A stretch of DNA of 57,933 nt, from positions 1 through 57,933 of IMG/VR virus record IMGVR_UViG_3300028767_000024. One strand, written 5' to 3'. The translations under genes and the position numbers were made by a program. Of the stretch, positions 1 to 49,483 are shown in pieces. Source of the stretch: a virus (taxonomy: Duplodnaviria > Caudoviricetes). The stretch's first letter is position 1, and every line of letters starts with the position of its first letter. The notes below the pieces were generated by a model. That model saw nothing but the letters and a program-made list of their open reading frames with translations, had not been told where the DNA came from and did not search any database.

Positions 1-132
1 ACAGGGAATCGAAGTGCTGCCACTAACACAGGGGATCAAAGTGCTGCCACTAACACAGGGTATCAAAGTGCTGCCACTAACACAGGGTCTCAAAGTGCTG
101 CCACTAACACAGGGGATCAAAGTGCTGCCACT
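1..132 (+). repeat. 27-bp tandem repeat, ~4.9 copies visible (truncated by window edge)
   Basis: Unit ACAGGG-NNT-CRA-AGTGCTGCCACTAAC starting at 1, 28, 55, 82 and 109. Confidence 0.95.
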
Positions 133-330
133 GTTAATGGGGATGATTCGGTTGCATGTTCGATTGGATACAAAGGAACGGCAAGTGCATCACTGGGATC
201 AGCCATTGTATTGGCTGAACGAGATGATAACTATAAACTGATCACTATTAAGTCTGCCATTATTGACGGAGTAATTTTAAAGGCTAACGTATTTTACACA
301 CTGATTGATGGCGAGTTCGTTGAAGTATAA
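1..330 (+). CDS. 5'-truncated phage protein with 9-aa TGxxSAATN repeats (probable DUF7666-type repeat protein)
   Basis: Frame 1 is open from base 1 to TAA at 328-330: TGNRSAATNTGDQSAATN...AIVLAERDDNYKLITIKSAIIDGVILKANVFYTLIDGEFVEV. The C-terminus matches the usual ending of this phage repeat family. The ORF-track call 14..241 is the wrong frame. Confidence 0.8.
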   Translation, partial: TGNRSAATNTGDQSAATNTGYQSAATNTGSQSAATNTGDQSAATVNGDDSVACSIGYKGTASASLGSAIVLAERDDNYKLITIKSAIIDGVILKANVFYTLIDGEFVEV

Positions 331-347
331 CCATTAGCATTAATTAT

Positions 348-575
348 ATGAACATTTATCAACAGATGATTATCGAGGATACCAAATGTACTCCTGAGAT
401 CGCAGTAGAACTAGAAGAGATTATGCGTAATGACATCTCCCATAGTACGCTTGATTGGCAGACCCGCAAACAATTCCGTAAGGGTTCGAAAGAAGCCAAA
501 GAGATGTACGACTTTATGAACAGTCCTGCCGGTAAAGATTACATGGACGAATTAGAAAAGGAGTACGGATTATGA
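348..575 (+). CDS. hypothetical protein
   Basis: 75-aa ORF, A/T-rich leader, ATGA overlap with next gene. Confidence 0.7.
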   Translation: MNIYQQMIIEDTKCTPEIAVELEEIMRNDISHSTLDWQTRKQFRKGSKEAKEMYDFMNSPAGKDYMDELEKEYGL

Positions 576-754
576 AAGTATTGAAACAATCCGAATTATA
601 CAGACTATCCATAGAAGATAATGGATGGGCTAGAATTGATGATCTACGAATTGATGATCACAGGCTTATTGATAGTGAGCCTTTAATCAGGGAGTTATCT
701 GATATGACTTCTTATGACTTCGATGATGAATGTATGAGTTTATTTAATCTATAA
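572..754 (+). CDS. hypothetical acidic protein
   Basis: 60-aa ORF translationally coupled to the previous gene. Confidence 0.6.
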   Translation: MKVLKQSELYRLSIEDNGWARIDDLRIDDHRLIDSEPLIRELSDMTSYDFDDECMSLFNL

Positions 755-764
755 ATTAGTTGAT

Positions 765-986
765 ATGACAACAACGCAGAGTACTATTAACTTCATGTAT
801 TGGCTTATGAATTACAATTACGGATTCATTGCCGAGGTGTGGTCAGATGAGCCATGGTTAGCGTCACACCTAAATGAGAAATTCAAGGGTAGGACAATAC
901 TTAATTGGTTCTTTGAATTGGATACTGACAATAAGCGCAAGTTGGTAAATTGGGTAAACGAAAATTATTCAGGAGGAATTTTTTAA
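765..986 (+). CDS. hypothetical protein
   Basis: 73-aa ORF in tightly packed operon. Confidence 0.65.
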   Translation: MTTTQSTINFMYWLMNYNYGFIAEVWSDEPWLASHLNEKFKGRTILNWFFELDTDNKRKLVNWVNENYSGGIF

Positions 987-1282
987 TGAAACAGACTAAA
1001 TTAAGCCCAAATCAGGATCGACGATGCAAGTTGTCGCCCGAGGACAAGCAAACTATCATCTCTTTAAAAGGATCGCTTACAACGGCTCAGATTGCCAAAC
1101 AGTTCGGGGTAAGCTGGAATTCAATTTACTTCTTGCTCAATCCCGATAAACTTGCAGAGAGCAGGGCTAAGTCGCAAGAGAAGGGCGGAATCAAACGCTA
1201 TTACGACAAAGACAAGCAGATCGCCAGGAATAAAGCGACTGCCGAGTATAAACAACAATTAAAATCGGAGGGTAAATTATGA
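986..1282 (+). CDS. putative helix-turn-helix DNA-binding protein
   Basis: KLSPEDKQTIISLKGSLTTAQIAKQFGVSWNSIYFLL is an HTH pattern. The likely start is the ATG overlapping the previous stop (TAATG, MKQTKL) rather than the TTG at 950. Confidence 0.65.
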   Translation: MKQTKLSPNQDRRCKLSPEDKQTIISLKGSLTTAQIAKQFGVSWNSIYFLLNPDKLAESRAKSQEKGGIKRYYDKDKQIARNKATAEYKQQLKSEGKL

Positions 1283-1608
1283 ACAAGCACAAATTTACAT
1301 CAGGAGAATGGATTAACGGATGGGGTTATGGATTAACCGGCCCAACATGTCCGTGGCAGCCAACAGTAGATGATAACAGAGCATATATCCCTATATCAGT
1401 AGGAAAATCTGCGATTGCTATTGTAGTTCAGCCGGAGAGTAATTCCTTGGATGAGATGAAGGCAAATGCAAAATTAATCTGTAATGCGCCTCTTTTATTG
1501 GACGCATTATTTGAGGCGATTGATCAGCTTGAATCATGGAATCCTGAATCGGAAGATACGTTTACTATGAAAAGAATTCGTGAAACCATTCAAAAAGCAA
1601 CATCATGA
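1279..1608 (+). CDS. hypothetical phage protein (KHTPGPW...ANARLIAAAPELL-type family)
   Basis: HKFTSGEW...EMKANAKLICNAPLLLDAL resembles a common small phage protein family. Confidence 0.7.
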   Translation: MNKHKFTSGEWINGWGYGLTGPTCPWQPTVDDNRAYIPISVGKSAIAIVVQPESNSLDEMKANAKLICNAPLLLDALFEAIDQLESWNPESEDTFTMKRIRETIQKATS

Positions 1609-1799
1609 ATATTAAATTAGGATCCCAAGTAAAGTTTATTCATCCATTCAAAGATGAAGTAAACAAAGATGGGTCGTTTCTTACTTACACAGTGATTGAA
1701 ATTGAGCCCGAAACGAACTGGTGCCGGATACAGGCCAACGTACCGATGAAAATTAAGCCAAGTCAGGTTGCTAATATTAGTGATCTTGAATTGGTATGA
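1605..1799 (+). CDS. hypothetical small beta-barrel (SH3/KOW-like) protein
   Basis: MNIKLGSQVKF...YTVIEI...ISDLELV pattern. Confidence 0.55.
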   Translation: MNIKLGSQVKFIHPFKDEVNKDGSFLTYTVIEIEPETNWCRIQANVPMKIKPSQVANISDLELV

Positions 1800-1832
1800 A
1801 TTGATAGTGAATCAACATAACAACCCAACACA

Positions 1833-2063
1833 ATGAAAAAGTTAATTATAATACTCGTTTTAATGCTTGGTGTGCTCACATCTCAGGCAGGAATCAAAGT
1901 AAGACACAGTAAGTCTCACGTAGTTCACAAGACTGCAAATAAGATCAGATATTACAAACGCCATCACCAGAATCATATCTTTCAGAGGTATCTGCAAACT
2001 TACCATCCCCACAAGGGAATTTTATCAACAACTTTTCAGCCAAAGGGACAAAGAATATTTTAG
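1833..2063 (+). CDS. small secreted basic His-rich protein
   Basis: MKKLIIILVLMLGVLTSQA resembles a Sec signal peptide; mature part rich in H/K/R. Confidence 0.6.
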   Translation: MKKLIIILVLMLGVLTSQAGIKVRHSKSHVVHKTANKIRYYKRHHQNHIFQRYLQTYHPHKGILSTTFQPKGQRIF

Positions 2064-2088
2064 TTATTAACAATTAATAAACACAAAC

Positions 2089-2499
2089 ATGAAAAACGAA
2101 TCAGTAATTGTAAAAGAAATCTGTTATCACGGCAATGAGTATTCAGATGCCCCAAATACAGTAGTATTGTCTTTTAATGCAAACAGCGTTGATCGTATTG
2201 CCCACGTAATGTCATTACTTGAGCACAATAAAGAGAAGCTAATAATTAACTCCATTCGTATTGATGCCTGTCCTTATTCCTTATGGCTTGAATACGATAA
2301 GGATAATTCCGAAACAGAAAACATTGATGCTGCTGATTGGAGAGATGATGGCGGACAGTTTATCATTACTTCGTACGGAATTTACTTTTACTCTCAATCC
2401 AAATGGGATGCATCTGATCAAATCAAGTCTGATTCAATATCCTTTGAAGAAATCATGGAAGGATTTAAAGAAGATTTGATTCCGGCTATTGGAAATTAA
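2089..2499 (+). CDS. hypothetical protein
   Basis: 136-aa ORF with A-rich leader. Confidence 0.7.
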   Translation: MKNESVIVKEICYHGNEYSDAPNTVVLSFNANSVDRIAHVMSLLEHNKEKLIINSIRIDACPYSLWLEYDKDNSETENIDAADWRDDGGQFIITSYGIYFYSQSKWDASDQIKSDSISFEEIMEGFKEDLIPAIGN

Positions 2500-2510
2500 A
2501 AATACTTATT

Positions 2511-2518
2511 TATATTTG
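2511..2518 (+). promoter_or_regulatory. Bacteroidota primary-sigma -7 promoter element (TAnnTTTG)
   Basis: TATATTTG at the start of a long intergenic region. Confidence 0.65.
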
Positions 2519-2522
2519 TCCT

Positions 2523-2660
2523 GTCGTTTGGAAGCGGCCTTTAAATAAACGGAGATTATGAATTCATGTTTTGCACATACGATTTTTTGTGAATCATGCT
2601 CGGTCATGTCTCCGTCTATAAACCATCAGGACTTCCAATTCCCTGATGGTTTTTCATTTT
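2523..2660 (+). ncRNA. candidate structured leader RNA A (kissing loop + terminator-like hairpin)
   Basis: 5' hairpin with TTGGAAG (2528-2534); middle stem ACGGAGA/TCTCCGT; 3' hairpin AAACCATCAGG/CCTGATGGTTT with loop CTTCCAA (2632-2638), then a T-tract. Confidence 0.55.
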
Positions 2661-2667
2661 ATAATAG

Positions 2668-2956
2668 GCGATAGGACAAGGGATTCTCACGAAGGTTAGG
2701 GGCTTATCGTAACATTACCGAAACCAAGGGAGGCGCAATCGGTACACCGGGACAAAGAGAGGAGGTGGCGTCAACGACTGTATGAAGTCAAAAGTTGCTC
2801 TCAAATTCGTTAAGCTCATACTGCGACGATGTAAGATGACGGGGACTGGCTCCACAAGCCTGTTGATTTGATTCTTGCAGTCCTAACCATTAACGATGAG
2901 TTTTTGGTTAGGAAGAACTAACTGTAAGAATCAAAAAAACTCCACCAAAGCCTGTT
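2668..2956 (+). ncRNA. candidate large structured non-coding RNA/DNA element
   Basis: No ORF of 60 aa or more, GC-richer than flanks by eye, several stems, and a long terminal hairpin flanked by a direct repeat. Confidence 0.45.
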
Positions 2957-3026
2957 AAAACTTCTATTAACTAATACAATAATTAACAACTAATTAAATA
3001 ATATTTAATACTAACTATTAATAATC

Positions 3027-3239
3027 ATGAATCAATACAACGTAATTTATTTAAAGCATGATCAAAAGTCTGATTCATGCATTGTAACTGCTAACCGCAA
3101 ATCTAAAGCAACTTCTCTCGTTCTATCTCAGGTTAAAGATGTTGAAAGGATACTTAGTGCAACCAGAGTGGAGAGGCAGTATTCCTCATTCGATATAAAC
3201 AAATTACTGTATTCAGGATTAAATACGCAAACTGCATGA
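3027..3239 (+). CDS. hypothetical protein
   Basis: 70-aa ORF after AT-rich leader, ATGA-coupled to next gene. Confidence 0.6.
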   Translation: MNQYNVIYLKHDQKSDSCIVTANRKSKATSLVLSQVKDVERILSATRVERQYSSFDINKLLYSGLNTQTA

Positions 3240-3619
3240 AACCTAGCGTAGTCAAACTCCTCCATATTTCCCTTTCCGTTTGCCCGGATCGACAATTTAT
3301 TATCCTAGGTCAAATTCAAAGTATTGAGCGCTTATTAAAGGTAACCAATACAAAGATCAGGGTAGTAGACAGAACCAAGAGTGAGGATAACGTATCTGTA
3401 TTCAGGGTAGTATTCCGGGATGAGATCAAGAGTCTATTCGACCGCATCTGTTCTGTTCAGGACTTGCTTCATATCTCTGGAAATTTAACGACTGATAGTG
3501 AATCGAATATTGAACTGGATGCAAAATACTTCTTAGCCTTTGACGGGTTAAAGAATGTATTTGATACCTCTGTTACAGCCATACCAACGGATGAATTTGA
3601 TCCTACGAGGGCTTATTAA
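3236..3619 (+). CDS. hypothetical protein
   Basis: 127-aa ORF. Confidence 0.6.
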   Translation: MKPSVVKLLHISLSVCPDRQFIILGQIQSIERLLKVTNTKIRVVDRTKSEDNVSVFRVVFRDEIKSLFDRICSVQDLLHISGNLTTDSESNIELDAKYFLAFDGLKNVFDTSVTAIPTDEFDPTRAY

Positions 3620-3671
3620 TTCACATTTAATCCCTGTTGAAATAGTATGTATAACCAAATACATATAAATT

Positions 3672-3956
3672 ATGAATCCAATATTACAAATACCAAACAT
3701 TACTAATCCGCTGGGAAAACATTGGCAGCAACCTGTAAAATCTAAAATCCTATTAGACGAGCATAATGCAGTTATGTCAGAATCCACGCTAAAGCAATTA
3801 CTCGAATATTCTGCATCAAGACCAACAGGCTTATATGCAGGAAAGATGTGGAGATCAGTTGATACGAAAGGGATTAACGCTCTACATTTCTGTTTTGAAC
3901 TTCCAGAAGATCCTGGAGCCGTATATATTCGTTCGCTGCCCATTTTAATACTGTAA
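3672..3956 (+). CDS. hypothetical phage protein
   Basis: IPNITNPLGKHWQQP...LLEYSASRPTGLYAGKMWR resembles a recurring small phage protein. Confidence 0.7.
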   Translation: MNPILQIPNITNPLGKHWQQPVKSKILLDEHNAVMSESTLKQLLEYSASRPTGLYAGKMWRSVDTKGINALHFCFELPEDPGAVYIRSLPILIL

Positions 3957-3960
3957 GAAT

Positions 3961-4218
3961 ATGGCTTTACTATCAGACGATCAGGACATACAGATAGCAT
4001 TATTCAGAATTGAAACAGGTGGGAATGGGGATTACTACCCACAGATATTTTATAAGGATTCAGAGGGTTTAAATCATACGGTTGGCGTGAGAATAGCCAT
4101 GAGTGGCGGTAATGCTCCCACTGATGTAAAACTTGCCGTTGCTGATCTTTATAGAGCCTTAGAAAAGCATGGACTAAACGAACATCCTATTAACGAACCC
4201 GAAAAATGGGATCTTTAA
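3961..4218 (+). CDS. hypothetical protein
   Basis: 85-aa ORF in operon. Confidence 0.65.
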   Translation: MALLSDDQDIQIALFRIETGGNGDYYPQIFYKDSEGLNHTVGVRIAMSGGNAPTDVKLAVADLYRALEKHGLNEHPINEPEKWDL

Positions 4219-4271
4219 AAAGGTTCACCTTGAGTGAGTATTTGGACCAAATTAACATTAAAATTAAAATC

Positions 4272-4490
4272 ATGTCAAGAAACACAGACCCTTTTGCACC
4301 GTGGAATAATCCGATGTACGAAAACGATCCGTTAGCGGCTCACAACAATCCTATGTATAAGGATGACCCATTTAAGCCGTGGAATGAACCTTTTGGATCA
4401 GTGAACGACCTTAACCGAGAAGAGAAATCTTCTTATGGAATAAGGCGAAATTATAGAGATAATTTAGAGGAAGAAGATTACGATTATTAA
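4272..4490 (+). CDS. small protein with three DPxxPWNNPMY-like 12-aa repeats
   Basis: The ATG at 4272 follows ATTAACATTAAAATTAAAATC, nearly identical to the leader of the next gene (4486-4506). Confidence 0.65.
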   Translation: MSRNTDPFAPWNNPMYENDPLAAHNNPMYKDDPFKPWNEPFGSVNDLNREEKSSYGIRRNYRDNLEEEDYDY

Positions 4491-4506
4491 CATTAAAACA
4501 AAAATC

Positions 4507-4644
4507 ATGGGGGAAATTAGAAATGAATTAAAACAGGCGTTTAAAGAAGATCCTTGGATAATGATTAAGCTGACGTTGCAGATAATCTTTGTTCTTGGGC
4601 TTAGTGTGGGTATTATTGTGCTTGCAGCCTGCTTAGGAGATTAG
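4507..4644 (+). CDS. small membrane protein (45 aa; below ORF-track cutoff)
   Basis: MGEIRNELKQAFKEDPWIMIKLTLQIIFVLGLSVGIIVLAACLGD, one TM helix, fills the gap between genes. Confidence 0.6.
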   Translation: MGEIRNELKQAFKEDPWIMIKLTLQIIFVLGLSVGIIVLAACLGD

Positions 4645-4667
4645 TAATAACCAATAATTAACAAGTT

Positions 4668-4898
4668 ATGAACAAGAAAGAAATCAAACAAATTGAAGAA
4701 GCAAAAGAGTTGATCGAACAGGCTTCGGCTATTATCGATGAGTTAAAGTGCACAAGAGAAAGTTATGCCGAAGAACGTTCCGAGAAATGGGCTGATTCAG
4801 ATGCAGGTCAGGAGTACGTTGATCAGACAGAACGGCCTGAAGGACTGTATGAATCGATCGTAGAGTTAAGCGAACAGTTTGACGAGTTTATATCATGA
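4668..4898 (+). CDS. hypothetical acidic coiled-coil protein
   Basis: 76 aa; ERSEKWADSDAGQEY motif typical of a small phage protein family. Confidence 0.7.
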   Translation: MNKKEIKQIEEAKELIEQASAIIDELKCTRESYAEERSEKWADSDAGQEYVDQTERPEGLYESIVELSEQFDEFIS

Positions 4899-5557
4899 GA
4901 ATGCTACGCGGAATCATAGGTTGTGAAGAATCACAGACAGTATGTAAGGCATTTAGAGCGTTAGGGCACGAAGTTTACAGTTGTGATTTACAGCCATGTT
5001 CGGGAGGAGAACCTCAGTGGCATATTCAGGACGATATTCTTAATCACCTGAATGACGGATGGGACTTTGCCATTTTCCATCCCGATTGCACTTTCTTAAC
5101 TGTGTCCGGTAATAAGTGGTTCACTCCTCAGCCAAATAGAGTATCTGGTAAATTAGTTGGACAGGATAGAGTGGATGCAAGGGATAAGGCAGTAGAATTC
5201 TTTATGAAGCTAATAAATGCCCCGATACAGCACATCGCAGTAGAGAATCCTATTGGCGTCATGAGCACGCTTTACCGCAAGCCCGACCAAATTATTAACC
5301 CATTTCAGTTCGGTCATCCTGAGCCAAAGAAAACGTGTCTGTGGCTAAAGAATCTTCCATTACTTACGCCTACTAAAATTGTGGAACCGGAATGGTTTAC
5401 AACTAAGTCTGGTAAGAGGATGCCTACCTGGTCACATAAACCTTCTCCTTCTCCCGAAAGACAAAAGATGAGGTCGGTTACTTTCCAAGGAATTGCTGAT
5501 GCCATGGCAAAGCAATATAGCGAATACTTAATCAACTACTATGAGACGCCACAGTAA
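4895..5557 (+). CDS. putative DNA cytosine methyltransferase (short phage type)
   Basis: GCEESQTVCKAFRALGHEVYSCDL, FHPDCTFL, IAVENPIG, INPFQFGH..KKTCLWLKNLP, RSVTFQGIADAMAKQY. Confidence 0.75.
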   Translation: MRMLRGIIGCEESQTVCKAFRALGHEVYSCDLQPCSGGEPQWHIQDDILNHLNDGWDFAIFHPDCTFLTVSGNKWFTPQPNRVSGKLVGQDRVDARDKAVEFFMKLINAPIQHIAVENPIGVMSTLYRKPDQIINPFQFGHPEPKKTCLWLKNLPLLTPTKIVEPEWFTTKSGKRMPTWSHKPSPSPERQKMRSVTFQGIADAMAKQYSEYLINYYETPQ

Positions 5558-5711
5558 TCACTCAAGGTATCCGGTATTCTCGTTAATGTTTATGATCGCC
5601 TTTATCCTGCTACTATTCTTCATTAGTTGCAGGTCATTTCAAAGCATGGAGCAGTATAAGAATTACGAGAAGGATCATCACAGAATCAGACCGGCGCATG
5701 TAGTTAAATGA
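5541..5711 (+). CDS. small putative lipoprotein (56 aa; below ORF-track cutoff)
   Basis: MRRHSNHSRYPVFSLMFMIAFILLLFFISC-RSFQ...: basic n-region, hydrophobic h-region, lipobox-like FISC. Confidence 0.5.
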   Translation: MRRHSNHSRYPVFSLMFMIAFILLLFFISCRSFQSMEQYKNYEKDHHRIRPAHVVK

Positions 5712-5714
5712 AAT

Positions 5715-5751
5715 AAGAAAAACCCGATTCGACATTTCGAGCTTTTCTTTC
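5715..5751. terminator. imperfect hairpin between convergent transcription units
   Basis: AAGAAAAACCCGA...TCGAGCTTTTCTTT at the + / - strand junction. Confidence 0.4.
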
Positions 5752-5782
5752 AAACAACTAATTTCAATCATGAAATACAAAA

Positions 5783-5995
5783 CTATTTTTCGACGAACAA
5801 CTCTTTTGTCGGATCAGGCTCGGTTATCGTAACCTTTGTTTCCATTGCCCGGCATAGCGTGAAATATCTTTTGAATAATTCGGGATTTTGATCTACCAAG
5901 TATTTGATCATGTCCGCAATGTCTTCCTTGGACATATAGCCGAAATCGGGTTGCTTAACTTCTTCTTTTGTTTGAACTGTGTCTTTCTTTGCCAT
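5783..5995 (-). CDS. hypothetical protein
   Basis: 70-aa ORF with its own TATCTTTG promoter upstream. Confidence 0.7.
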   Translation of the reverse strand: MAKKDTVQTKEEVKQPDFGYMSKEDIADMIKYLVDQNPELFKRYFTLCRAMETKVTITEPDPTKELFVEK

Positions 5996-6031
5996 TGGAT
6001 TAAGTTTAAAGGATTACTTTTAAGTATGGAG

Positions 6032-6039
6032 CAAAGATA
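6032..6039 (-). promoter_or_regulatory. Bacteroidota -7 promoter element
   Basis: TATCTTTG on - strand, intergenic. Confidence 0.6.
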
Positions 6040-6070
6040 ATATATTTTACTTATATATTGATAGTGAATT

Positions 6071-6664
6071 TTAGAATTTGTAGTTTAATCCAAACTCATA
6101 TCCCTTACTCTTGAAATTTGACAGGTATTTTAAGCCTAATCCTACATTGTAATAGTAAATTCCGACTCCAGCACCTGCGTATCCAAAAGTGTTGTAAGAA
6201 ACGCCTAAAAATGGGGTAAACACCCTCTGTTTTATTATGGTTGTCTGTTTCTCCATAGGAGTGAAGGAATAATCCAGCTTATTGAGTTTGTTATATTGCA
6301 CCTCTGCCCCCACAACGAGTTTTCCAACGGTGCCATTATCAAACATGGTTTTACTATATTTATTTAGCTTAACGTAGTCTGCAATAATTGCTGCTGTATC
6401 AACAATAGAAGCAATATACACGGGCTTCCCGGGGATTCTGATTGTGTCAGGTTTCATAGGCAGAACGGGTTTAGTAGGAATAATCACCTCGTACGGCTTA
6501 TCTACGTACACGGTATTTGTTACAGTTTCGCCTTTTATGTATTTTGTAACTATCGAAGGCTCAGTTTGCCAGCGACCAATAAAGAATCCTATAATCAACG
6601 CTGCAATTCCAATTACCCACCAATACTTTTTAAGTAATTCCATTGTCTTAGTTTTTATATTCAT
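6071..6664 (-). CDS. N-terminally membrane-anchored lysis-module protein (spanin-like candidate)
   Basis: TM helix WWVIGIAALIIGFFIG; C-terminal beta strands ending FGLNYKF; near the lysin gene. Confidence 0.5.
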   Translation of the reverse strand: MNIKTKTMELLKKYWWVIGIAALIIGFFIGRWQTEPSIVTKYIKGETVTNTVYVDKPYEVIIPTKPVLPMKPDTIRIPGKPVYIASIVDTAAIIADYVKLNKYSKTMFDNGTVGKLVVGAEVQYNKLNKLDYSFTPMEKQTTIIKQRVFTPFLGVSYNTFGYAGAGVGIYYYNVGLGLKYLSNFKSKGYEFGLNYKF

Positions 6665-6833
6665 TTACAATTTCACAGCCTTGTATGCCCTTTTGAATAA
6701 TATCAATGGCATCACCAACATCCTTAAAGTTGTGATACTTTTCTGAGTGGCATAGAATTTTTCCGTTCTTGGCAATGATTTTAAAGCTCCATTTCTGGTG
6801 AAAGAATCCGTTACGAACAATTATGATTTTCAT
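6648..6833 (-). CDS. DUF1508/YegP-like small protein
   Basis: WSFKIIAKNGKILCHSEKY...DAIDII. Confidence 0.65.
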   Translation of the reverse strand: MKIIIVRNGFFHQKWSFKIIAKNGKILCHSEKYHNFKDVGDAIDIIQKGIQGCEIVNEYKN

Positions 6834-7252
6834 GATATTGTAATTTTAATTGGGTCGGCTGCATTATTCAGAATATCAAATAGACGAAAGAAAATGTCGT
6901 GAGAGTCGGTTAATTGACCTACGATAGAGTTTTTTCCAACAAGAATACATCCGGCAGTATTAGCAGAAGTTGTTCCGTTGTGTATACGAATACCTTCAAA
7001 CCCTGGCACATTTAGAAGCAAAGGCATGATTCTCTGGAAGCGATTGGACCAATTCAAGATAACCGTATATGTTCCCGACGGAATAGCGGTCTGTGCATAC
7101 ACCTTTTCTTCGCCGGGATCAGTTATATCCCCATCATGGTTGTAATCCCTGTCCCTATCCTCCAGTGTTTCAGAAAATAATACGCCGTCGATAAAAAGTT
7201 TACCGATGGTATATGTCGATCTTCGTGCAATTCTTTTAAGTTTTAGTTCCAT
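6830..7252 (-). CDS. DUF5675 family putative endolysin
   Basis: YTIGKLFIDG..FSETLED..TAIPSGTY..LLNVPGFEGIRIHNG....TAGCILVG. Confidence 0.85.
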   Translation of the reverse strand: MELKLKRIARRSTYTIGKLFIDGVLFSETLEDRDRDYNHDGDITDPGEEKVYAQTAIPSGTYTVILNWSNRFQRIMPLLLNVPGFEGIRIHNGTTSANTAGCILVGKNSIVGQLTDSHDIFFRLFDILNNAADPIKITIS

Positions 7253-7254
7253 GA

Positions 7255-7938
7255 TTATTTATTTAGCAAGTCTTCATTTTTCTGTTTCATATAGTCGTTT
7301 CGGTAAAACTTACTTTCCCCCCTTGTGGGATCACTAAGGTAGTGAGAGATTATCCAATAGTAATTTGTGCTGTCTATCGGGTTATTTTTATTCTGAATAA
7401 ATAACTTTTTGTAATAGGCTTCCCTTATGTCATTTATTTCTCTTGCATTTTGAATGGTTAAATATTTGAGTAGCTCTATCTTCTCTGCCTTGTTTTGTAT
7501 TTCTCTGTTATCATACAACACAACGGCACTTAACGCAACAGCAACAAGTAAAACTATCCCTAACACCCACTTTATCAATCCCAAAACTTTTTTTTCAAAG
7601 TTGTCATATTTTTCCTCTTGCTTCCCGGATTGTTTCTCTAAATGCTCTGCATAGGCAGCGTCGTGTTTTAATCCCTGTTCTTCCAGGTATGCTTTTATAG
7701 CATCATCCGTTTTGGTTCCTATCTGAATTATAGCCTTGTCTGTTTTGCGTTCAAAATGTTCTGATAATTCATCTGATTGGATTTCGAAGTTACTCAGCAC
7801 CTCTGCTGCACGAACTTCCAGTAAACCCAGAACGCCATTCGCATGACTGGCTATTCGGTCAAAACAGTTTATACACTCAGGGGTTCTTAGTGATTCCGGG
7901 GTCAGTTCGAGTCTGGGAATCCTTATTTTTTTAGCCAT
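7255..7938 (-). CDS. single-TM coiled-coil protein next to lysin (holin/antiholin-like candidate)
   Basis: TM WVLGIVLLVAVALSAVVLY; position in lysis module. Confidence 0.45.
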   Translation of the reverse strand: MAKKIRIPRLELTPESLRTPECINCFDRIASHANGVLGLLEVRAAEVLSNFEIQSDELSEHFERKTDKAIIQIGTKTDDAIKAYLEEQGLKHDAAYAEHLEKQSGKQEEKYDNFEKKVLGLIKWVLGIVLLVAVALSAVVLYDNREIQNKAEKIELLKYLTIQNAREINDIREAYYKKLFIQNKNNPIDSTNYYWIISHYLSDPTRGESKFYRNDYMKQKNEDLLNK

Positions 7939-8109
7939 AATTATTAGAGATAAATCTGGTATAAGCCAGAGGGTTCACTTTTGCATGTCGGGATATAAAT
8001 ATAGTATATTATTTTACTTAATGGAATACAGGGCATTAAATTCAAAAGCCTATGATATTAAAGCAAAAGAATTATTTGGGGAATTTGCATGGTTAAATTT
8101 TACAGATAA

Positions 8110-9651
8110 TCAAACGTTAGACCAATCATTATTATAGGCGCATAGGGCAGGTGTTGTTAGCATACTCCAGTCTTCGTTCAAAATCGCAGTGTATGATCCA
8201 CCTTCAAAGCCATGAATATAGTCTCCGTTTCTAAATTGTGTCTCTGCTAAATTTTCGCTTAACCACTCTACTCCATTTATAACTATTGTGTTATACGACT
8301 TTAAATTATTACCAGTATAAGTCCCTATATATCCGTTTTCGTGGGTTGTGGTAGGATTGCAAAGACGAATAGATGCGGCAGATGTTTTTGACTGCATACA
8401 AATCAGAGCGCTAGCATTATAGTAATTAATTCTATTCATATATGCGCTAACGGCATCGTAGTTGTCATAAATCCATATAATTCCATCATATTTTATCGTC
8501 CATTCGTCTCCAAAATTACCAACTTCAAGTCTTCCCCCACCTCCAATAATAGACAGTCCATACTCGTTGGTTGCTCCTTCGTTTGGTTCTTCCCAATGAA
8601 TTAATCCAATTTCTTTTAATTTACCACCAGCTAAAAGCCATGCATTAAATTCAGAATCAAATGTGTCTATTGAATTTAATAAATCTTCCCAAATACTTTT
8701 ACTTGGCACTACCCATTCATCTGAACTACTCAGATAAGTATAAGTAGCTGCATTGTTTTCATCGTTGTCATATACGCAACCTGCTTCAGTTTCTAATCCT
8801 GCCCATGTTGTATTATCAATAGGATGATAAACACCACCTTCAAAACCATGCACATAGTCACCGTTTTGGTATTTAGTTTCAGCTAAATTACAAGCCAACC
8901 ATTCTTGCGAACCAATGCAAATAGTAGGATAAATTTTTTCATCATTTCCAATATATATCCCAGTTTGACCATCTATTAGAGTTGTTGTTTCTTTTACTAA
9001 TCTAATAGAATAACCATAAGATTTTACATTAGTATATCCACCACTATCTGTAATTAAACTATCATACATTCTATAAAATCCAACAGAACTTCCGCTAACA
9101 GAAGAATTCCACATTTCAAATGTACTACCTATATTACCATAACCATTAATATTTCTATGACCAGAACCAACTGCCGTAAATCCAGTCTCATTAGTTGCTC
9201 CTGTGTTTGGACTTTGCCAATGTGTAAAACCTGTTTCTTTCAACTTTCCACCAGCATTTCCATATCCTAAAAACAATTGCATTGTTAAAATATCTCTATC
9301 GTCTTGACTATTATTATAAGATGGTAATTTCCATCCTATTGAAGCAATACCCCTACTATCAGTTGCAGCATACCAATTGTAAAGGCATCCGTTTGTGATA
9401 GCTTTTAACTGTTTTTGAGTTGCAAACCAGTTATACAATGCGCCGTAGCCACCTGTTTCAATTAGTTTATAGAGTGCCGTTAAAGTAGCATTACTCGCTG
9501 GCATAGTCACCGTAGCAGGATTAGCGTGTGCATCATCCAAAACTGATACATCACCGTCCCAAACATCGAATTCATATCCTTCTGGTGCGGTATCTGCCGT
9601 GATAATTCTAATATCCCCCGTATGTAATCCCGATTCAGTTGTTGTTGCCAT
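8110..9651 (-). CDS. receptor-binding/adhesin protein: partial InlB-B-repeat + two permuted Fib_succ_major (FISUMP) domains
   Basis: YGALYNW, GWKLPS, AGGKLKETGFTHWQSPNTGATNETGFTA, GYSIRLVKE, IGSQEWLACNL, with most motifs present twice. Confidence 0.8.
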   Translation of the reverse strand: MATTTESGLHTGDIRIITADTAPEGYEFDVWDGDVSVLDDAHANPATVTMPASNATLTALYKLIETGGYGALYNWFATQKQLKAITNGCLYNWYAATDSRGIASIGWKLPSYNNSQDDRDILTMQLFLGYGNAGGKLKETGFTHWQSPNTGATNETGFTAVGSGHRNINGYGNIGSTFEMWNSSVSGSSVGFYRMYDSLITDSGGYTNVKSYGYSIRLVKETTTLIDGQTGIYIGNDEKIYPTICIGSQEWLACNLAETKYQNGDYVHGFEGGVYHPIDNTTWAGLETEAGCVYDNDENNAATYTYLSSSDEWVVPSKSIWEDLLNSIDTFDSEFNAWLLAGGKLKEIGLIHWEEPNEGATNEYGLSIIGGGGRLEVGNFGDEWTIKYDGIIWIYDNYDAVSAYMNRINYYNASALICMQSKTSAASIRLCNPTTTHENGYIGTYTGNNLKSYNTIVINGVEWLSENLAETQFRNGDYIHGFEGGSYTAILNEDWSMLTTPALCAYNNDWSNV

Positions 9652-9654
9652 AAC

Positions 9655-12600
9655 TTAAAATATTATTTTTCTTATAGGTCTTACATAACCAATTTCAAAA
9701 TCATCATTACCTTCATCGTTTAAATCAGGACTAGTAGGTTGCCAATTAGTTCCATAACTATTATTTGGTAAATAACCAACTCTATAGATTATTTTTTCAT
9801 TATGATATTCATCCCAGTTTCCAGAACTACTACTCCAATAATTAGTTCTTTGTGTAGTACAAATAATAAAATTAATATTAAATAATCTTAAATTAGAAAG
9901 TGAAATATCTAGTTCTTTTGCACTAGGCAAATACCAATCATTGTGTTCACCACCATTGTATTCTCTTGTAAGTTTGGCGGCATATCCACTTTGTCCTTTT
10001 GCATCTAAATCAGCTATAATTAAATCAGTATAAGAACTTCCATTACCTATTGAACTATCATATGAAATTCCAGCAATAGGAATAAAAGGATCAGTATAAT
10101 AGTCATTAAAACAGAATCTTTGTTCTCCACCAATATCTTCTGTACTAATTACTAATATAAAAGAATGATCTGGTTCTATATAACTTACAATTCCACCACC
10201 GTATAAATCACCTATTTCTGGAAACGCAGAAGGCATTGATATTGTTCCATTATTTACAGTAAGCGTATAAGTTTGATCTAATACATTATATAATATATTC
10301 CATTCTCTACCAGTAGAATCAGGTGGTAATTCATCCATTAACATATCTATTGTATCGAGCATATCCTGATCTGTAATTGGTGGATTATCACCCTTAATAT
10401 CCAATAAACAAATATCAGTAGTAGATTCTATATTAGATAGATCAACTGCATGAATCAGGTTATATAGCTGTTCTACATCCATTCCTGTGTTCTTCCAGAT
10501 AATACTCTTGTCACCGTTATTGCCTGTCGGAATATCTGTGCCTGAGCAAATCGTAACTTTTGAATAGGATGCGTCAACATGGGCAATATCAAACAGAGTG
10601 GTTAAATCGCCTGTAATTCCGGTATTGGATATATTAAGATTGTGTGTGACTACTGATAGTGAGCTGCAATCCCCGGAAATAGGTGTGTTCTGAATCTCTA
10701 ACGAATATAGCGGGGTCTTAAACTTATCTGTCGGCATATAGAAGAACTGACCGACAGTATTCTGAATTCCAAGATTAGTGTCGCTCAAATCCACCGATCC
10801 ATTTGCAAGTAGTCCGCCATTATCTGTAAAATAAATCAGTTGTATGGCATTACAGGTAAACGATTCGAATAGGTTTTGTAAATCAGATGCCGGTATATTA
10901 TTGGTAAGCGTTACGGTATAAACTCCGGGCATGGAATATAAATGTGATTGTAGTTGTGGTTGATAAATCATACCCTCAATAATCACATCCGGTTCTCCTT
11001 CTCCGTAATCGATATGAGTTGAATAATTCGCTACCTCATCCTCATTTGGAGTGAAGCTAAAATCAATTGTAGTAGGTTCTGATATCTGAAATACAAAAGT
11101 CAAACTCTTGCTTGTTACATAAGCATCCATCCATCTAACCTGGAGCCGGGGCTGACCGTACTCTACCAAGGCATTTGTGCATCCACGACTACTTCCGCCA
11201 AACCACGTAGGATGGGCGTCGATCTCCACTGTTGGCATACGCTGAAGGCAGGCATACTTAATCATGCCTGTAAAAGATTCATCAGGGACTATCCTGAATA
11301 TCTTTTGGGTTACGGCACCTACCCGTACCAATACCTTGTATTTTTTAACTATACCTGGTTCTCCAGAAAGCCACAATCTATCCGTGCTATCTTCAAGGGT
11401 AATTCCTGTTGGGTAATCTTCCGGTTGTAGGAATGAACGCTCATGCCCGCCCTGCTTATAATAAGTATTTCCGTCAAGCCAATTGCAGATTGCCCCATCA
11501 AAAGTGCCAAGTAAATCGATAGCTAAATGCCCCGAGTTTATTACACATTCAATTTCGATAAAGCAGTATTGACCGTAATGAATCGGAGTCCTGATCTTAG
11601 GGCAACTCTGCCATACTCCATCTGTTGCATTACTCATCGAATCACGATATATGGCACCATCTCTAATCTGCCAGCTTGAATCGTAATTCCAAAACTTACG
11701 CAATAGGTAGGTAGGGTCGTCCGGGTTGTCAAACTGTTGCTCTAATCTAAACGACGGGTTGTATAATAAATTACCTTGTCCTTCCTGCATAAAAGGAACA
11801 TCATAATCGCTTGCGTCAGGATACATGTCAAGCTGAGGATTACCGGATGGATATTCTACTCCACCAAATACAAGTCCGCCCTCGGTTGTGATATTATTCC
11901 CGGCAGAGGGCATGTACTTGTTCTTTCGCATTCCCTGATCCCCATCAGAATTGATATACCGGTTATCGTAGGTAGGGAATAGTCCAAGCACACTGCCATT
12001 TTTATTCAGGTCAAGTAGTGCAAGAAAATCAACATATCTGGCATTCTGAAATATGATGGGTGTGTTTATGTAAACATTTTGCTTCCCTTCCGATGATCTT
12101 CCTAGTGGGGTGATTACATCAAATACGGGAGCCATGTATTTATCAGGGGCAATCGCAACTACAAACGCGGTAGGCTTTGCCGGTATTGTCACTCCGTCTA
12201 TTATTTTGGTTGTACTTAAATGGCATCCTGAGATAGCTTCGAGTTCTACCTTGAATGTAATTACCGGAGGCGGAGTCATTAAATCATACTGATTAGCCTT
12301 TGGGAAAAACTTAAAGTTAGCATACTTCTTTCTACCCTCGGCGTCGTCCATCGGGTACTCAGCTGAATTCATCGCGGCAGTATGGATGTTCTGATCTTTT
12401 GTGCGGGAAATTAACTTCGAACTAAAATCATCTGTTCCATCAAAAAGTCTTCCGAATCCTATCTGATATTTTGTTTTCTTAATGTCATCCCAAGTGTACA
12501 TACCAGAGATAAGATTCTTGTACTGATATATTCCGTCAATAGCCTTTGTAGGATATGAAAAAAAGTTCCATATAGAATCAGCAACTAAAATCATAGTTGT

Positions 12601-18078: not shown

Positions 18079-19599
18079 TTACACCTGTGTAATATTAACC
18101 AAAGTGTTATTATCAATCAGATATTGAATATCTCCATCAGGATTACCAACATTATTTGTCATTAGGTATGAAGGAACTGTCAGGTTAATTACTGCATTAC
18201 CTGCGATGCCATAAAATACATTATCCTCACCTGTTGTATTTCCAATTGTAGGAGCTATATAATTAGATAGATCAATGTTTATCAGGGAGGTGCAACCTGC
18301 GAAACAACTATCTCCTGCTGTGGTGACACTACCTGTTGAAGTTAGAGATGTACAACCTGCGAAACAATTACTTCCTGCTGTGGTAACATTATCTATTGAA
18401 GTCAGGGAGGTACAACCTTGGAAACAATATTCTCCTGCTGTAACTACACTACCTGTTGAAGTTAGAGATGTACAACCATTGAAACAATAATTTCCTGCTG
18501 TGGTGACACTACCTGTTGTAGTCAGTGAGGTGCAACCATTGAAACAACTTTCTCCTGCTGTGGTAACGCTTCCTGTTGAAGTCAGTGAGGTGCAACCATA
18601 GAAACAATATTCTCCTGCTGTAACTACACTACCTGTTGAAGTTAGAGATGTGCAACCTGCGAAACAACTTTCTCCTGCTGTGGTAACATTATCTATTGAA
18701 GTCAGTGATGTGCAACCTGCGAAACAACCAAATCCTGCTATGGTAACGCTTCCTGTTGAAGTCAGGGAGGTGCAACCATAGAAACAATATTCTCCTGCTG
18801 TAACTACACTACCTGTTGAAGTCAGAGATGTGCAACCATTGAAACAATTATTTCCTGCTGTGGTGACACTACCTGTTGTAGTCAGTGAGGTGCAACCATA
18901 GAAACAACTATCTCCTGCTGTGGTGACACTACCTGTTGTAGTCAGTGAGGTGCAACCATAGAAACAATATTCTCCTGCTGTAACTACACTACCTGTTGAA
19001 GTTAGAGATGTACAACCATTAAAACAATAATTTCCTGCTGTGGTGACACTACCTGTTGAAGTCAGGGAGGTGCAACCATAGAAACAATTATTTCCTGCTG
19101 TGGTGAATTTAGCACCTGTGATTTCAGTTAAACTTGAACCTCCTTCATCATAATCACCAAAAGCATAATATCCTGCATAAACCACATCGTTAAATGTACC
19201 TGTAATAAGTGCTGAATTACTAAAAGCAAAATCAGAAATATACCTGAATACTCCTGTGTCCGTAATTGAAATAATGTGAGCGTTTCTGCGAAACAGACTG
19301 TCTTTCAGAATTGACCCCGAACGTCCCGTTAATGTAACAGAATTCCCATCTACGCTAACTGCGGTAAACGGTACTCCAAAGTTTGGAAAGTCCAAAAAAG
19401 CGTTCCAGTCTGATAATGAATTGACATCTGCAACTGGTATGTTTGCAGGATTTGTAACGTCATCAAACTCTAAGGTTATTGTTTTGCTTGCCCCGTAGAG
19501 TTCGGCAAACATTGCGTTTACTGCTTCAAAACCTGCACGGATGGTATCTCCCAATCCGTCATTGGCTGCATCACCAATATTAATTGTGTACTGTCCCAT
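18079..19599 (-). CDS. virion-attached BspA-like (LRR_5) leucine-rich-repeat protein
   Basis: N-terminal INIGDAANDGLGDTIRAGFEAVNAMFAELY resembles the T4 gp9/gp10-like attachment motif; ~14 x CTSLTSTGSVTTAGxxCFxG. Confidence 0.85.
   Translation of the reverse strand: MGQYTINIGDAANDGLGDTIRAGFEAVNAMFAELYGASKTITLEFDDVTNPANIPVADVNSLSDWNAFLDFPNFGVPFTAVSVDGNSVTLTGRSGSILKDSLFRRNAHIISITDTGVFRYISDFAFSNSALITGTFNDVVYAGYYAFGDYDEGGSSLTEITGAKFTTAGNNCFYGCTSLTSTGSVTTAGNYCFNGCTSLTSTGSVVTAGEYCFYGCTSLTTTGSVTTAGDSCFYGCTSLTTTGSVTTAGNNCFNGCTSLTSTGSVVTAGEYCFYGCTSLTSTGSVTIAGFGCFAGCTSLTSIDNVTTAGESCFAGCTSLTSTGSVVTAGEYCFYGCTSLTSTGSVTTAGESCFNGCTSLTTTGSVTTAGNYCFNGCTSLTSTGSVVTAGEYCFQGCTSLTSIDNVTTAGSNCFAGCTSLTSTGSVTTAGDSCFAGCTSLINIDLSNYIAPTIGNTTGEDNVFYGIAGNAVINLTVPSYLMTNNVGNPDGDIQYLIDNNTLVNITQV
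18282..19106 (-). repeat. 60-bp coding tandem repeat, ~14 copies, with a 180-bp higher-order period
   Basis: Lines 18301-19081 align column for column; the variant TAACTACACT recurs in the lines starting 18421, 18601, 18781 and 18961. Confidence 0.97.
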
Positions 19600-46739: not shown

Positions 46740-46780
46740 TTTATAAAATTTACGTCACATACTTTATTGTCTGGACAAAG

Positions 46781-46788
46781 CAAATATA
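46781..46788 (-). promoter_or_regulatory. Bacteroidota -7 promoter element
   Basis: TATATTTG on - strand, intergenic. Confidence 0.6.
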
Positions 46789-49418: not shown

Positions 49419-49483
49419 GTCGTAAGTTTTATTCGATAAACTTACAATTTTTTAGGTGAACTGCGAATACATTGAATTATTTT

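What the first reader, a model, noticed from the sequence alone, without database searches (positions are those of the whole stretch)
2661..2960. ~300-nt multi-stem non-coding element downstream of leader A (candidate large ncRNA or replication-origin RNA)
This is the largest non-coding stretch in an otherwise densely packed genome, and it is GC-richer than its AT-rich flanks by eye. Visible stems are GCGATAGG/CTTATCGT (2668-2710), TACCGA/TCGGTA (2716-2744), GAGAG/CTCTC enclosing CAAC-GACT..AGTC-GTTG (2757-2802), and a long terminal hairpin (2867-2935). It occupies the slot that homing endonuclease ORFs fill behind leaders B and C, so here the regulated cargo appears to be an RNA. It could be a primer/origin RNA, a ribozyme or a protein-binding scaffold; all three are inference.
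Basis: partly seen in the sequence, partly recalled or inferred. Interest (0 to 1): 0.75.

Follow-up and report, generated by a model that had tools for sequence, protein, structure and literature searches.

The report
Orphan non-coding filler with one hairpin
The stretch is truly non-coding and unusually GC-rich, but apart from one long hairpin it folds no better than shuffled sequence, has no relatives anywhere searched, and sits in a slot where related phages carry a homing endonuclease gene, so it looks like a variable untranslated spacer rather than a large structured RNA.

Summary
Window 2661-2960 lies in the largest gene-free gap (2500-3026) of a peat phage contig whose nearest named kin infect Bacteroidota. 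It is non-coding by every test run: stops in all frames, no codon bias, no 3-base periodicity, no Pfam/PHROG or homing-endonuclease remnant. Its core (2661-2866) has GC 0.49, the top 1% of 200-nt windows. The 'multi-stem' fold is not more than chance. The core gives z=+1.30, its two halves +0.22 and +0.29, and with the hairpin kept and the flanks shuffled z=+0.92. Only the terminal hairpin 2862-2940 is significant (-35.3 kcal/mol, z=-8.6). There was no Rfam match and no homolog in any collection searched, so covariation could not be tested. Upstream lie a Bacteroidota-type promoter, 30/32 identical to one in a distant relative, and a strongly folded leader ending in a terminator-like hairpin. 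In two independent relatives the same slot holds an AP2/HNH-type homing endonuclease gene. Best reading (about 0.5): lineage-specific non-coding DNA in a hypervariable insertion slot, transcribed by read-through as a long 5' UTR, with the hairpin as a processing or stability element. A functional orphan RNA or an R-loop origin is not excluded. Interest is low.

The parts
2494..2525 (+). Promoter. Holds a Bacteroidota-type -7 box (TATATTTG, 2511-2518), with the probable transcription start near 2524.
   Evidence: It is the only TAnnTTTG on the + strand within the + gene block 1-5711. It is 30/32 identical to L021 2760-2791, while the flanking genes are only about 49% identical in protein. Similar boxes lie in intergenic regions upstream of - strand genes. 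The consensus itself is recalled knowledge.
2520..2660 (+). Leader A: a small hairpin, a long hairpin (2545-2619), and a terminator-like hairpin (2620-2630 / 2642-2652, 11 bp, 11-nt loop) followed by UUUUUCAUUUU.
   Evidence: MFE -41.6 kcal/mol, z=-4.37, 0/200 shuffles as good. Pair probabilities are 0.95-0.99. The tool's terminator scan did not list it, because its loop limit is 8 nt.
2661..2861 (+). GC-rich (0.49), purine-rich (0.60) non-coding core; no significant fold, orphan sequence.
2862..2940 (+). Long compound hairpin. Lower stem 14 bp (2867-2880 / 2922-2935), an 8-9-nt internal loop on the 3' side only, upper stem 8-9 bp (2882-2889 / 2905-2912), and a small apical stem. An A7 run follows.
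   Evidence: z=-8.64. Pair probabilities are 0.98-1.00. It is the second-longest close inverted repeat in the contig. No copy was found elsewhere.
2850..2866 (+). Direct repeat copy 1 (CTCCAC-AAGCCTGTTGA), immediately 5' of the hairpin.
   Evidence: Perfect 9-nt AAGCCTGTT at 2856-2864 and 2948-2956; the extension was read.
2940..2958 (+). Direct repeat copy 2 (CTCCACCAAAGCCTGTTAA), immediately 3' of the hairpin. Its GCCUGUUA pairs with UAAUAGGC at 2662-2669 in the ensemble.
   Evidence: The closing helix has P=0.97 when 2655-2965 is folded alone, but it adds nothing beyond chance in the shuffle test.
2959..3026 (+). AT-rich spacer (GC about 0.2-0.25) with two 15-nt direct repeats (2969-2983, 2988-3002) and a near-consensus -7 box (TAATATTTA, about 3000-3008) ahead of the next gene.
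   Evidence: the near-box was read (inference).
3027..3239 (+). 70-aa ORF, first gene after the gap. Its stop overlaps the start of the 127-aa gene. It has no counterpart in L021.
   Evidence: The next gene, 3236-3619, is 38% identical to L021 3580-3963 (E=3e-26).

Best explanation
The 300 nt are lineage-specific non-coding DNA in a hypervariable insertion slot. The slot lies between a conserved host-type promoter with a terminator-bearing leader and the first conserved gene of the downstream operon. In relatives the slot holds a free-standing AP2/HNH-type homing endonuclease gene. Here it holds a GC-rich, unfolded 200-nt core of unknown (probably foreign) origin, one very stable 79-nt hairpin flanked by a short direct repeat, an AT-rich spacer and a small orphan ORF.

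Likely working, all inferred. RNA polymerase starts near 2524 and mostly stops at the leader terminator (about 2655). Read-through transcripts carry 2661-3026 as a long 5' untranslated region of the ORF70 / 127-aa operon. The hairpin, two helical segments separated by a one-sided internal loop, acts as an RNA processing or stability element: an RNase III-type site or an exonuclease barrier. It separates the upstream RNA from the downstream message. The core itself has no folded function.

Shown: non-coding status, composition, lack of fold in the core, significance of the hairpin, slot variability, and promoter conservation. Inferred: transcription, termination, processing, and the foreign origin of the core.
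For: Non-coding:
- All three stop types occur in every frame.
- The best codon-usage score in the core, 0.19 per codon, is below the in-frame mean of 0.35 and below the mean of the small + strand genes, 0.26.
- There is no 3-base periodicity: chi2 4.95, p=0.55. Coding windows have median 13.5 and 5th percentile 6.2, n=35.
- 0 of 9 stop-free fragments hit Pfam or PHROGs at a meaningful level.

No fold beyond chance outside the hairpin. The hairpin gives z=-8.64.

Slot variability:
- Of the 4 metagenome loci found with the upstream protein, 1 is identical to the window.
- 2 are near-duplicates of each other and carry the promoter (30/32 identical), a leader and a 228-aa AP2-domain ORF.
- 1 carries a leader and a 226-aa AP2 + HNH_3-like ORF.
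- All three leaders are significantly folded and end in a hairpin plus U-run just before the cargo: z=-4.37, -4.65 and -2.97.

Orphan status: no match in any collection searched.

Precedent: tight transcriptional and translational restraint of free-standing endonuclease genes by terminators and hairpins is described for T4 (PMC2988022, passages read). Promoter plus stem-loop cassettes flank variable genes in T4-type phages (PMC2839356, abstract read).
Against: - No expression data exist. No RNA run was listed as a holder, so transcription, read-through and processing are untested.
- A phage genome this compact rarely keeps 200 nt of useless DNA. Its GC of 0.49, against 0.26-0.28 for the other intergenic gaps, argues for either recent acquisition or selection.
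- No donor for the core was found, so 'foreign debris' is an argument by exclusion.
- The hairpin is followed by A7 rather than a U-run, and nothing shows that RNase III cuts it.
- The leader terminator has an unusually large 11-nt loop and was not called by the scan.
- Absence of a thermodynamic signal does not exclude an RNA that works unfolded or through tertiary or protein contacts.
- All assemblies of this phage are identical, so purifying selection could not be measured.
Confidence: 0.5

Rival explanations
1. A genuine trans-acting phage ncRNA of about 300 nt, structured through contacts that energy models miss or deliberately unstructured (decoy, sponge or antisense). It would be made by read-through from the 2511 promoter and ended or stabilised by the hairpin.
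For: - GC is in the top 1% and this is the only non-coding GC-rich window.
- It sits behind a conserved promoter.
- The + strand folds 11 kcal/mol better than the - strand over the whole element.
- A terminal 8-bp helix 2662-2669 / 2950-2957 has P=0.97.
- No coding signal was found.
Against: - The core folds no better than shuffles.
- There is no Rfam family at gathering score, and the best sub-threshold match is RAGATH-26 at 16.5 bits against a cutoff of 86.3, E=2.4.
- No homolog was found, so there is no covariation evidence.
- A terminator-like hairpin lies between the promoter and the element.
- No complementarity to other phage transcripts beyond 11-13 nt was seen.
Confidence: 0.17
2. A decayed protein-coding gene, either a homing endonuclease or another cargo gene, eroded beyond recognition.
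For: - The same slot holds an AP2/HNH-type gene in relatives.
- The distance from the promoter to the 127-aa gene is similar in the two phages: about 710 nt here and about 788 nt in L021.
- The purine-rich composition resembles the sense strand of the + block.
- Another endonuclease remnant survives elsewhere in the contig, at 7949-8107.
Against: - Five endonuclease-type proteins were compared with the region by tblastn; the best E-values were 0.37-1.6 in a 601-nt database.
- tblastx against three related genomes, the contig itself and the slot loci gave nothing better than E=0.039, from a 15-aa match.
- Pfam and PHROGs gave nothing.
- There is no periodicity or codon bias.
- GC is higher, not lower, than in the endonuclease genes and the other gaps, which is opposite to expected decay in an AT-rich phage.
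Confidence: 0.13
3. A replication origin of the transcription-primed (R-loop) type. A promoter drives a G-cluster-rich, purine-rich, unfolded transcript into a hairpin and an AT-rich unwinding region with short direct repeats.
For: - The layout runs promoter, then a purine-rich core with five runs of three or four G and no self-structure, then AT-rich 2959-3026 with two 15-nt repeats.
- The contig encodes a DnaB-like helicase.
Against: - A terminator-like hairpin sits between the promoter and the core.
- Cumulative GC skew follows gene orientation, peaks at the convergent junction near 6 kb and shows nothing at 2.6-3.0 kb.
- The replication genes lie at the far end of the contig.
- Relatives place an endonuclease gene, not an origin-like sequence, behind the same promoter.
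- AT-rich intergenic DNA is the rule in this genome.
Confidence: 0.07
4. The hairpin with its flanking direct repeats is a miniature inverted-repeat insertion into an older, shorter spacer. The repeats are a target duplication.
For: Inverted arms abut a direct repeat on both sides: 9 nt perfect, and about 17 of 19 over the extended repeat with one indel.
Against: - No second copy was found in the contig, in three related genomes or in the slot loci.
- No exact arm pattern was found in IMG/VR or in the GTDB species genomes.
- A 17-nt target duplication would be unusually long.
Confidence: 0.08
5. The region encodes a small protein, for example the 29-aa basic ORF 2782-2871 that follows an AGGAGG motif.
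For: An ATG ORF of 29 codons, with AGGAGGTG 14-16 nt upstream.
Against: - The codon score in that frame is negative, -0.12 to -0.28.
- The spacing to the AGGAGG is too long, and Bacteroidota rarely use such sites (recalled).
- The start context is unlike that of the other genes here.
Confidence: 0.04

Closest known systems
PeSL (promoter-early stem-loop) regulatory cassettes of T4-type phages (Arbiol et al. 2010, PMC2839356, abstract read; Comeau et al. 2014, PMC4122927, search listing only)
   Same: A strong host-type promoter is coupled to a stem-loop terminator. The pair lies in a region of small non-essential genes, next to cargo that differs between related phages.
   Different: PeSLs occur as many near-identical copies per genome and recombine with each other. 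Here the promoter 20-mer occurs once in 57.9 kb, even with 3 mismatches allowed, and not at all in IMG/VR. The order differs too: here promoter, leader, terminator, then cargo. Mini-circles or recombination are untested.
Regulation of free-standing homing endonuclease genes in T4-like phages: terminators and hairpins ahead of or inside mobE, segB, segF and I-TevI-III (review PMC2988022, passages read)
   Same: In the relatives L021 and L023 the endonuclease start codon lies 13-17 nt after a stable hairpin plus U-run. Expression therefore needs read-through. The window keeps the same kind of leader.
   Different: In the window no endonuclease gene follows the leader. The phage lineage and host phylum also differ.
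RNase III processing sites of the phage T7 early region (recalled, not checked in a paper here)
   Same: An intergenic hairpin built of two helical segments of about 10-14 bp, separated by an internal loop, between an upstream RNA and the next gene.
   Different: No cleavage data exist. The internal loop here is entirely one-sided (8-9 nt). There is a single site, not a series. The host enzyme's specificity is unknown.
RAGATH-26 RNA (Rfam RF03051)
   Same: It is the best sub-threshold Rfam match, at 2740-2811 on the + strand.
   Different: It scores 16.5 bits against a gathering score of 86.3, E=2.4 in a 601-nt search, and the model's only stem is mostly deleted in the alignment. It is not a member.

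Membership tests
Any Rfam 15 family (riboswitch, ribozyme, group I/II intron, tmRNA, RNase P, 6S, HEARO, GOLLD/ROOL, Bacteroidota sRNAs) | Covariance-model score at or above the family's gathering score | tested here: not met
   0 matches in the whole window at gathering score. In 2450-3050 with permissive filters there were 5 matches, all with E of 2.4 or more and at or below 16.5 bits. ARAGORN found 0 tRNA or tmRNA genes.
Structured ncRNA in general | Folding energy better than dinucleotide shuffles | tested here: not met
   The core gives z=+1.30; its halves give +0.22 and +0.29; with the hairpin fixed, z=+0.92. Only the hairpin passes, z=-8.64.
Structured ncRNA in general | Homologs with structure-preserving (compensatory) changes | tested here: inconclusive
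   No homolog was found in the phage records, IMG/VR exact patterns, 3 related genomes, 401 Bacteroidota genomes or GTDB exact patterns. Contigs of 4 runs are identical.
Homing endonuclease pseudogene (AP2 / HNH_3 / NUMOD4 types) | Residual protein similarity to endonucleases of relatives or of the same genome | tested here: not met
   tblastn best E-values were 0.37-1.6. Pfam and PHROGs gave nothing. By contrast the remnant at 7949-8107 is detected at E=3.6e-4 to 0.007 (53).
Protein-coding sequence | Open frame, codon bias, 3-base periodicity | tested here: not met
PeSL-like regulatory cassette | Host-type promoter followed by a stem-loop terminator | tested here: met
   TATATTTG box at 2511 (16); an 11-bp hairpin plus U-run at 2620-2660 (45, 48). 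Function was not assayed.
PeSL-like regulatory cassette | Multiple conserved copies per genome that flank variable genes | tested here: not met
   One copy in the window at up to 3 mismatches. There are no leader repeats.
T7-type RNase III site | Two helical segments around an internal loop, in an intergenic position | tested here: met
   The predicted structure has pair probabilities of 0.98-1.00.
T7-type RNase III site | Cleavage by RNase III | not testable with these tools
   Needs an in vitro or in vivo assay.
MITE-like insertion | Terminal inverted repeats flanked by a direct target duplication | tested here: met
   Arms 2862-2881 / 2921-2940 (55). Direct repeat at 2856-2864 and 2948-2956, extendable to about 17 nt (61, 1).
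MITE-like insertion | Several copies in the genome or in related genomes | tested here: not met
Transcription-primed replication origin (T4 oriF/oriG or ColE1 type; recalled) | A promoter reading into an unwinding element, with origin activity | not testable with these tools
   The layout is compatible. GC skew is uninformative because it follows gene orientation.

The most novel reading that the evidence does not exclude
The core is an orphan phage RNA selected to stay unfolded. It would be a purine- and G-cluster-rich read-through transcript. It could seed a persistent RNA-DNA hybrid next to the AT-rich repeats, acting as a primer RNA for replication in a Bacteroidota phage. Alternatively it could act as a decoy for a host RNA-binding or defence factor. 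The leader terminator would serve as its on/off gate, and the hairpin would be its 3' end.
Probability: 0.08. Interest if true: 0.6.

Novelty: new member of a known kind. Interest (0 to 1): 0.2.

Why it matters
As it stands this is a cautionary case. Stems picked by eye in a GC-rich gap were no better than chance, and one hairpin carried the whole signal.

The useful positive result is the anatomy of a hypervariable slot in an unstudied peat phage lineage of Bacteroidota. A conserved promoter and a folded, terminator-bearing leader are kept. The cargo behind them alternates between a homing endonuclease gene and orphan non-coding DNA. This extends the promoter/stem-loop cassette logic known from T4-type phages to a very different group.

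If the core proved to be expressed and needed, it would be a new orphan phage RNA. Nothing yet argues for that.

Tried and rejected
- **Rfam:** at gathering score and at permissive thresholds, nothing.
- **ARAGORN**: nothing.
- **Phage GenBank collection:** blastn 'distant' with 2480-3030 and megablast with 1-12000, no match.
- **IMG/VR exact patterns:** a 29-mer, a core 20-mer, the promoter 20-mer and the hairpin arms with a gap. All gave 0.
- **GTDB species genomes:** hairpin 20-mer, 0.
- **Flanking proteins as bait:**
  - IMG/VR with the 136-aa and 94-aa proteins, and with a 3-sequence alignment: none.
  - GTDB with the alignment: none.
  - Metagenomes with the 136-aa protein: 4 loci, none with a homolog of the element.
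- **TerL relatives:** 4 IMG/VR loci. Three records were searched whole with the DNA and with a hairpin covariance model. Only chance-level hits appeared, and their small early genes are not conserved: 1 weak hit among 22 proteins.
- **401 Bacteroidota genomes, blast:** 6 genomes had 26-40-nt matches at per-genome E of 0.0016-0.008. That is about what 401 trials give by chance, and the matches lie mostly in the A/T-rich hairpin arm.
- **Sequencing runs:** 23 DNA holders, all peat metagenomes; no RNA holder was listed.
- **Laying 4 runs:** only identical low-depth contigs, so no variants and no joints.
- **Recoding:** TAG, TGA and TAA all occur in every frame, so recoding was rejected.
- **Intron reading:** rejected, because the upstream gene ends where its homologs end.
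- **DGR template, retron or omega-RNA readings:** no matching repeat was found in the window, no Rfam match for such RNAs, and no partner enzyme among the ORFs annotated. The window was not searched specifically for a reverse transcriptase or TnpB/IscB.
- **L021 non-coding stretch 3964-4119:** tested as a possible analogue; it is not folded (z=-0.19) and not similar.
- **Not run:** large protein-database searches with the 36-55-aa stop-free fragments. At 1.8-5.8 billion targets, such short and presumably diverged queries cannot reach significance.
- **Earlier findings:** the store was closed.
- **Supplementary files of papers:** not consulted.

Full report
**Context**

The window is one IMG/VR virus record of 57,933 bases, judged 71% complete. 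Small genes on the + strand fill 1-5711. Everything else runs on the - strand, including the portal, the large terminase, a 2471-aa ORF and a DnaB-like helicase.

The terminase's nearest named relatives are Cellulophaga phages phi46:3, phi19:3, phi18:3 and phi13:2 (24.7% identity) and Flavobacterium phages. The methyltransferase at 4895-5557 is closest to Chitinophagales and Bacteroidetes MAG sequences. Boxes of the form TAnnTTTG sit in several intergenic regions; that this is the Bacteroidota -7 consensus is recalled knowledge. The host is therefore probably a member of Bacteroidota. Near-identical DNA is held by 23 peat metagenome runs.

**The observation**

- The gap 2500-3026 (527 nt) is the largest stretch free of ORFs on the local coding strand. 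The only other gap above 200 nt (49419-49818) contains a + strand ORF.
- GC rises to 0.47-0.48 across 2601-2900 and falls to 0.255 just after.
- The core 2661-2866 has GC 0.49. Only 1% of 200-nt windows reach that, and all the other GC-rich windows lie inside genes.

So the description is accurate. What fails is the claim that the stems amount to structure.

| Piece folded | z-score | Shuffles folding at least as well |
|---|---|---|
| 2640-2960, + strand (321 nt) | -2.41 | 2/100 |
| 2658-2870, + strand | +1.30 | 182/200 |
| 2658-2870, - strand | +0.15 | 104/200 |
| 2661-2760 | +0.22 | 119/200 |
| 2745-2870 | +0.29 | 121/200 |
| 2655-2965, hairpin kept, flanks shuffled | +0.92 | 256/300 |
| 2860-2945 (hairpin alone) | -8.64 | 0/200 |

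The signal of the whole element disappears once the last hairpin is removed. That hairpin alone is -35.3 kcal/mol, with pair probabilities of 0.98-1.00. An 8-bp helix can join 2662-2669 to 2950-2957 (P=0.97), but it adds nothing beyond chance in the shuffle test.

**Is it coding or ex-coding?**

- Every frame on both strands has TAA, TAG and TGA stops, so recoding does not rescue a frame.
- The longest stop-free fragments are 55 and 52 aa.
- Nine such fragments gave no Pfam or PHROG match of note.
- A codon-usage log-ratio trained on this contig's genes peaks at 0.19 per codon in the core. In-frame genes average 0.35, and the small + strand genes 0.26.
- There is no three-base periodicity: chi2 4.95, p=0.55. 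Thirty-five coding windows of the same size have a median of 13.5 and a 5th percentile of 6.2.
- Endonuclease proteins from the relatives and from this contig find nothing in 2450-3050 (best E 0.37-1.6). Yet they do detect a decayed AP2 remnant at 7949-8107 (E=3.6e-4 to 0.007).
- tblastx against three related genomes, the contig itself and the slot loci is empty.

The test has limited power for an old or foreign gene.

**Is it a known RNA, or a conserved one?**

Rfam gives no match at gathering score in the whole window. In the gap it gives only noise. There is no tRNA or tmRNA.

No homolog was found in any of these:
- GenBank phages;
- IMG/VR, with three exact patterns from the element;
- GTDB species genomes, with one exact pattern;
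- three related phage records, by DNA and by a covariance model of the hairpin;
- 401 sampled Bacteroidota genomes, where the six short hits are at the level expected from 401 trials.

Four peat runs hold only identical contigs. Covariation, the one test that could establish a structured RNA, could not be applied.

**The surroundings**

A TATATTTG box at 2511 is the only such box on the + strand of the + block.

The 146 nt that follow fold very well (z=-4.37, 0/200). They form a small hairpin, a long hairpin, and an 11-bp perfect hairpin at 2620-2652 followed by UUUUUCAUUUU. I read this last one as an intrinsic terminator.

Using the upstream 136-aa protein as bait, the metagenome collection gave four loci:
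- L020 is identical to the window.
- L021 and L022 are near-duplicates of each other, 49% identical in protein to the bait.
- L023 is 51% identical.

In L021 the 32 nt around the promoter are 30/32 identical to window 2494-2525, although the flanking genes are far more diverged. After a 90-nt leader that is also strongly folded (z=-4.65) and ends in a hairpin plus U-run comes a 228-aa ORF with AP2 domains. The homolog of window gene 3236-3619 follows (38% identity, E=3e-26).

In L023 a folded leader (z=-2.97) with a hairpin and U-run precedes a 226-aa ORF with an AP2 domain and a sub-threshold HNH_3 match.

The slot behind this promoter and leader is thus an insertion site for free-standing homing endonuclease genes. 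In the window it instead holds the 200-nt core, the hairpin, an AT-rich spacer and a 70-aa ORF with no counterpart in L021. I could not find 'leaders B and C' as repeats of leader A inside the window.

**The hairpin**

It has a 14-bp lower stem, an 8-9-nt loop on the 3' side only, an 8-9-bp upper stem and a small cap. It is followed by seven A, not by U, so it is not an intrinsic terminator on either strand.

It is bracketed by a direct repeat: AAGCCTGTT perfect at 2856 and 2948, extendable to about 17 nt with one indel. That layout suggests either an inserted palindromic element with a target duplication, or two alternative partners for upstream segments. No second copy exists in anything searched, so mobility is unproven.

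Its two-segment shape resembles the RNase III sites that separate early messages of T7 (recalled, not checked).

**Most likely working**

- Transcription from the 2511 promoter mostly ends at the leader terminator.
- Read-through carries the gap as a long 5' untranslated region into ORF70 and the conserved 127-aa gene.
- The hairpin serves as a processing or stability element.
- The core is sequence left by turnover of mobile cargo at a recombination-prone slot, without a folded function.

The same logic of restraint by terminators and hairpins is described for T4 free-standing endonuclease genes (PMC2988022, passages read). Promoter/stem-loop cassettes that flank variable genes are described for T4-type phages (PMC2839356, abstract read; PMC4122927, listing only).

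I give this reading about 0.5. The main weakness is the composition: 200 nt at GC 0.49 in a compact phage whose other gaps are at 0.26-0.28 is either recent or selected. No donor was found.

**Rivals**

| Reading | Confidence | Main point |
|---|---|---|
| Functional orphan RNA, folded in ways energy models miss or working unfolded | 0.17 | Cannot be excluded |
| Eroded gene | 0.13 | No residual protein or coding signal |
| Transcription-primed origin | 0.07 | Fits the layout (promoter, G-cluster-rich unfolded transcript, AT-rich repeats), but a terminator intervenes, GC skew only tracks gene orientation, and relatives put an endonuclease gene in the same place |
| Hairpin as an inserted element | 0.08 | No second copy found |
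| 29-aa ORF | 0.04 | Negative codon score |

**Verdict**

- The feature is an ordinary kind of thing, a variable non-coding spacer with a stable hairpin in an endonuclease slot, in an unstudied lineage.
- Interest is low unless expression data show a discrete RNA.

Noticed in passing
window 2520-2660 (+): Leader A has its own promoter, three hairpins and a terminator-like end, and it is the significantly folded RNA of the gap (z=-4.37). It could be a stand-alone small RNA of about 130 nt, or an attenuator. A 38-codon ORF (2558-2674) runs through its long hairpin and the terminator stem, with no codon bias.
   Followed up: partly
window 7949-8107 (+), in the 171-nt gap 7939-8109: This is a remnant of the C-terminal AP2 domain of a homing endonuclease (tblastn E=3.6e-4 to 0.007), on the strand opposite to the surrounding genes. 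It looks like a decayed endonuclease gene.
   Followed up: partly
window 49484-49768 (+): An 85-aa + strand ORF with its own TATCTTTG box lies inside the - strand block. It has no Pfam match. By eye its sequence resembles a small HNH-like protein, but that is not shown.
   Followed up: partly
window 50992-51927 (-) and 45003-45572 (-): The first is a NUMOD4 + HNH_3 endonuclease gene whose real start is probably about 115 codons inside the listed ORF. The second is an AP2-domain protein. The contig therefore carries several endonuclease-type genes.
   Followed up: partly
window 18162-19181 and 1-162: There are thirteen tandem 60-nt repeats inside ORF 18079-19599, and five 27-nt repeats at the 3' end of the truncated first ORF. 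Both look like repetitive fibre-like proteins.
   Followed up: no
L021 3964-4119: A GC-rich stretch of about 155 nt without an ORF follows the 127-aa gene of the relative. It is not significantly folded (z=-0.19) and has no Rfam match.
   Followed up: partly
window 2557-2592, run X14: One 195-nt contig of another organism in a peat run matches 36 nt of the leader's long hairpin with 6 differences and then diverges on both sides. This hints that leader-like sequences occur in other peat phages.
   Followed up: no
window 46781-46788 (-) and 46733-46746: A promoter box with a context resembling the 2511 promoter (TTTATATTTG...TTTGTCC) lies upstream of gene 46017-46739.
   Followed up: no
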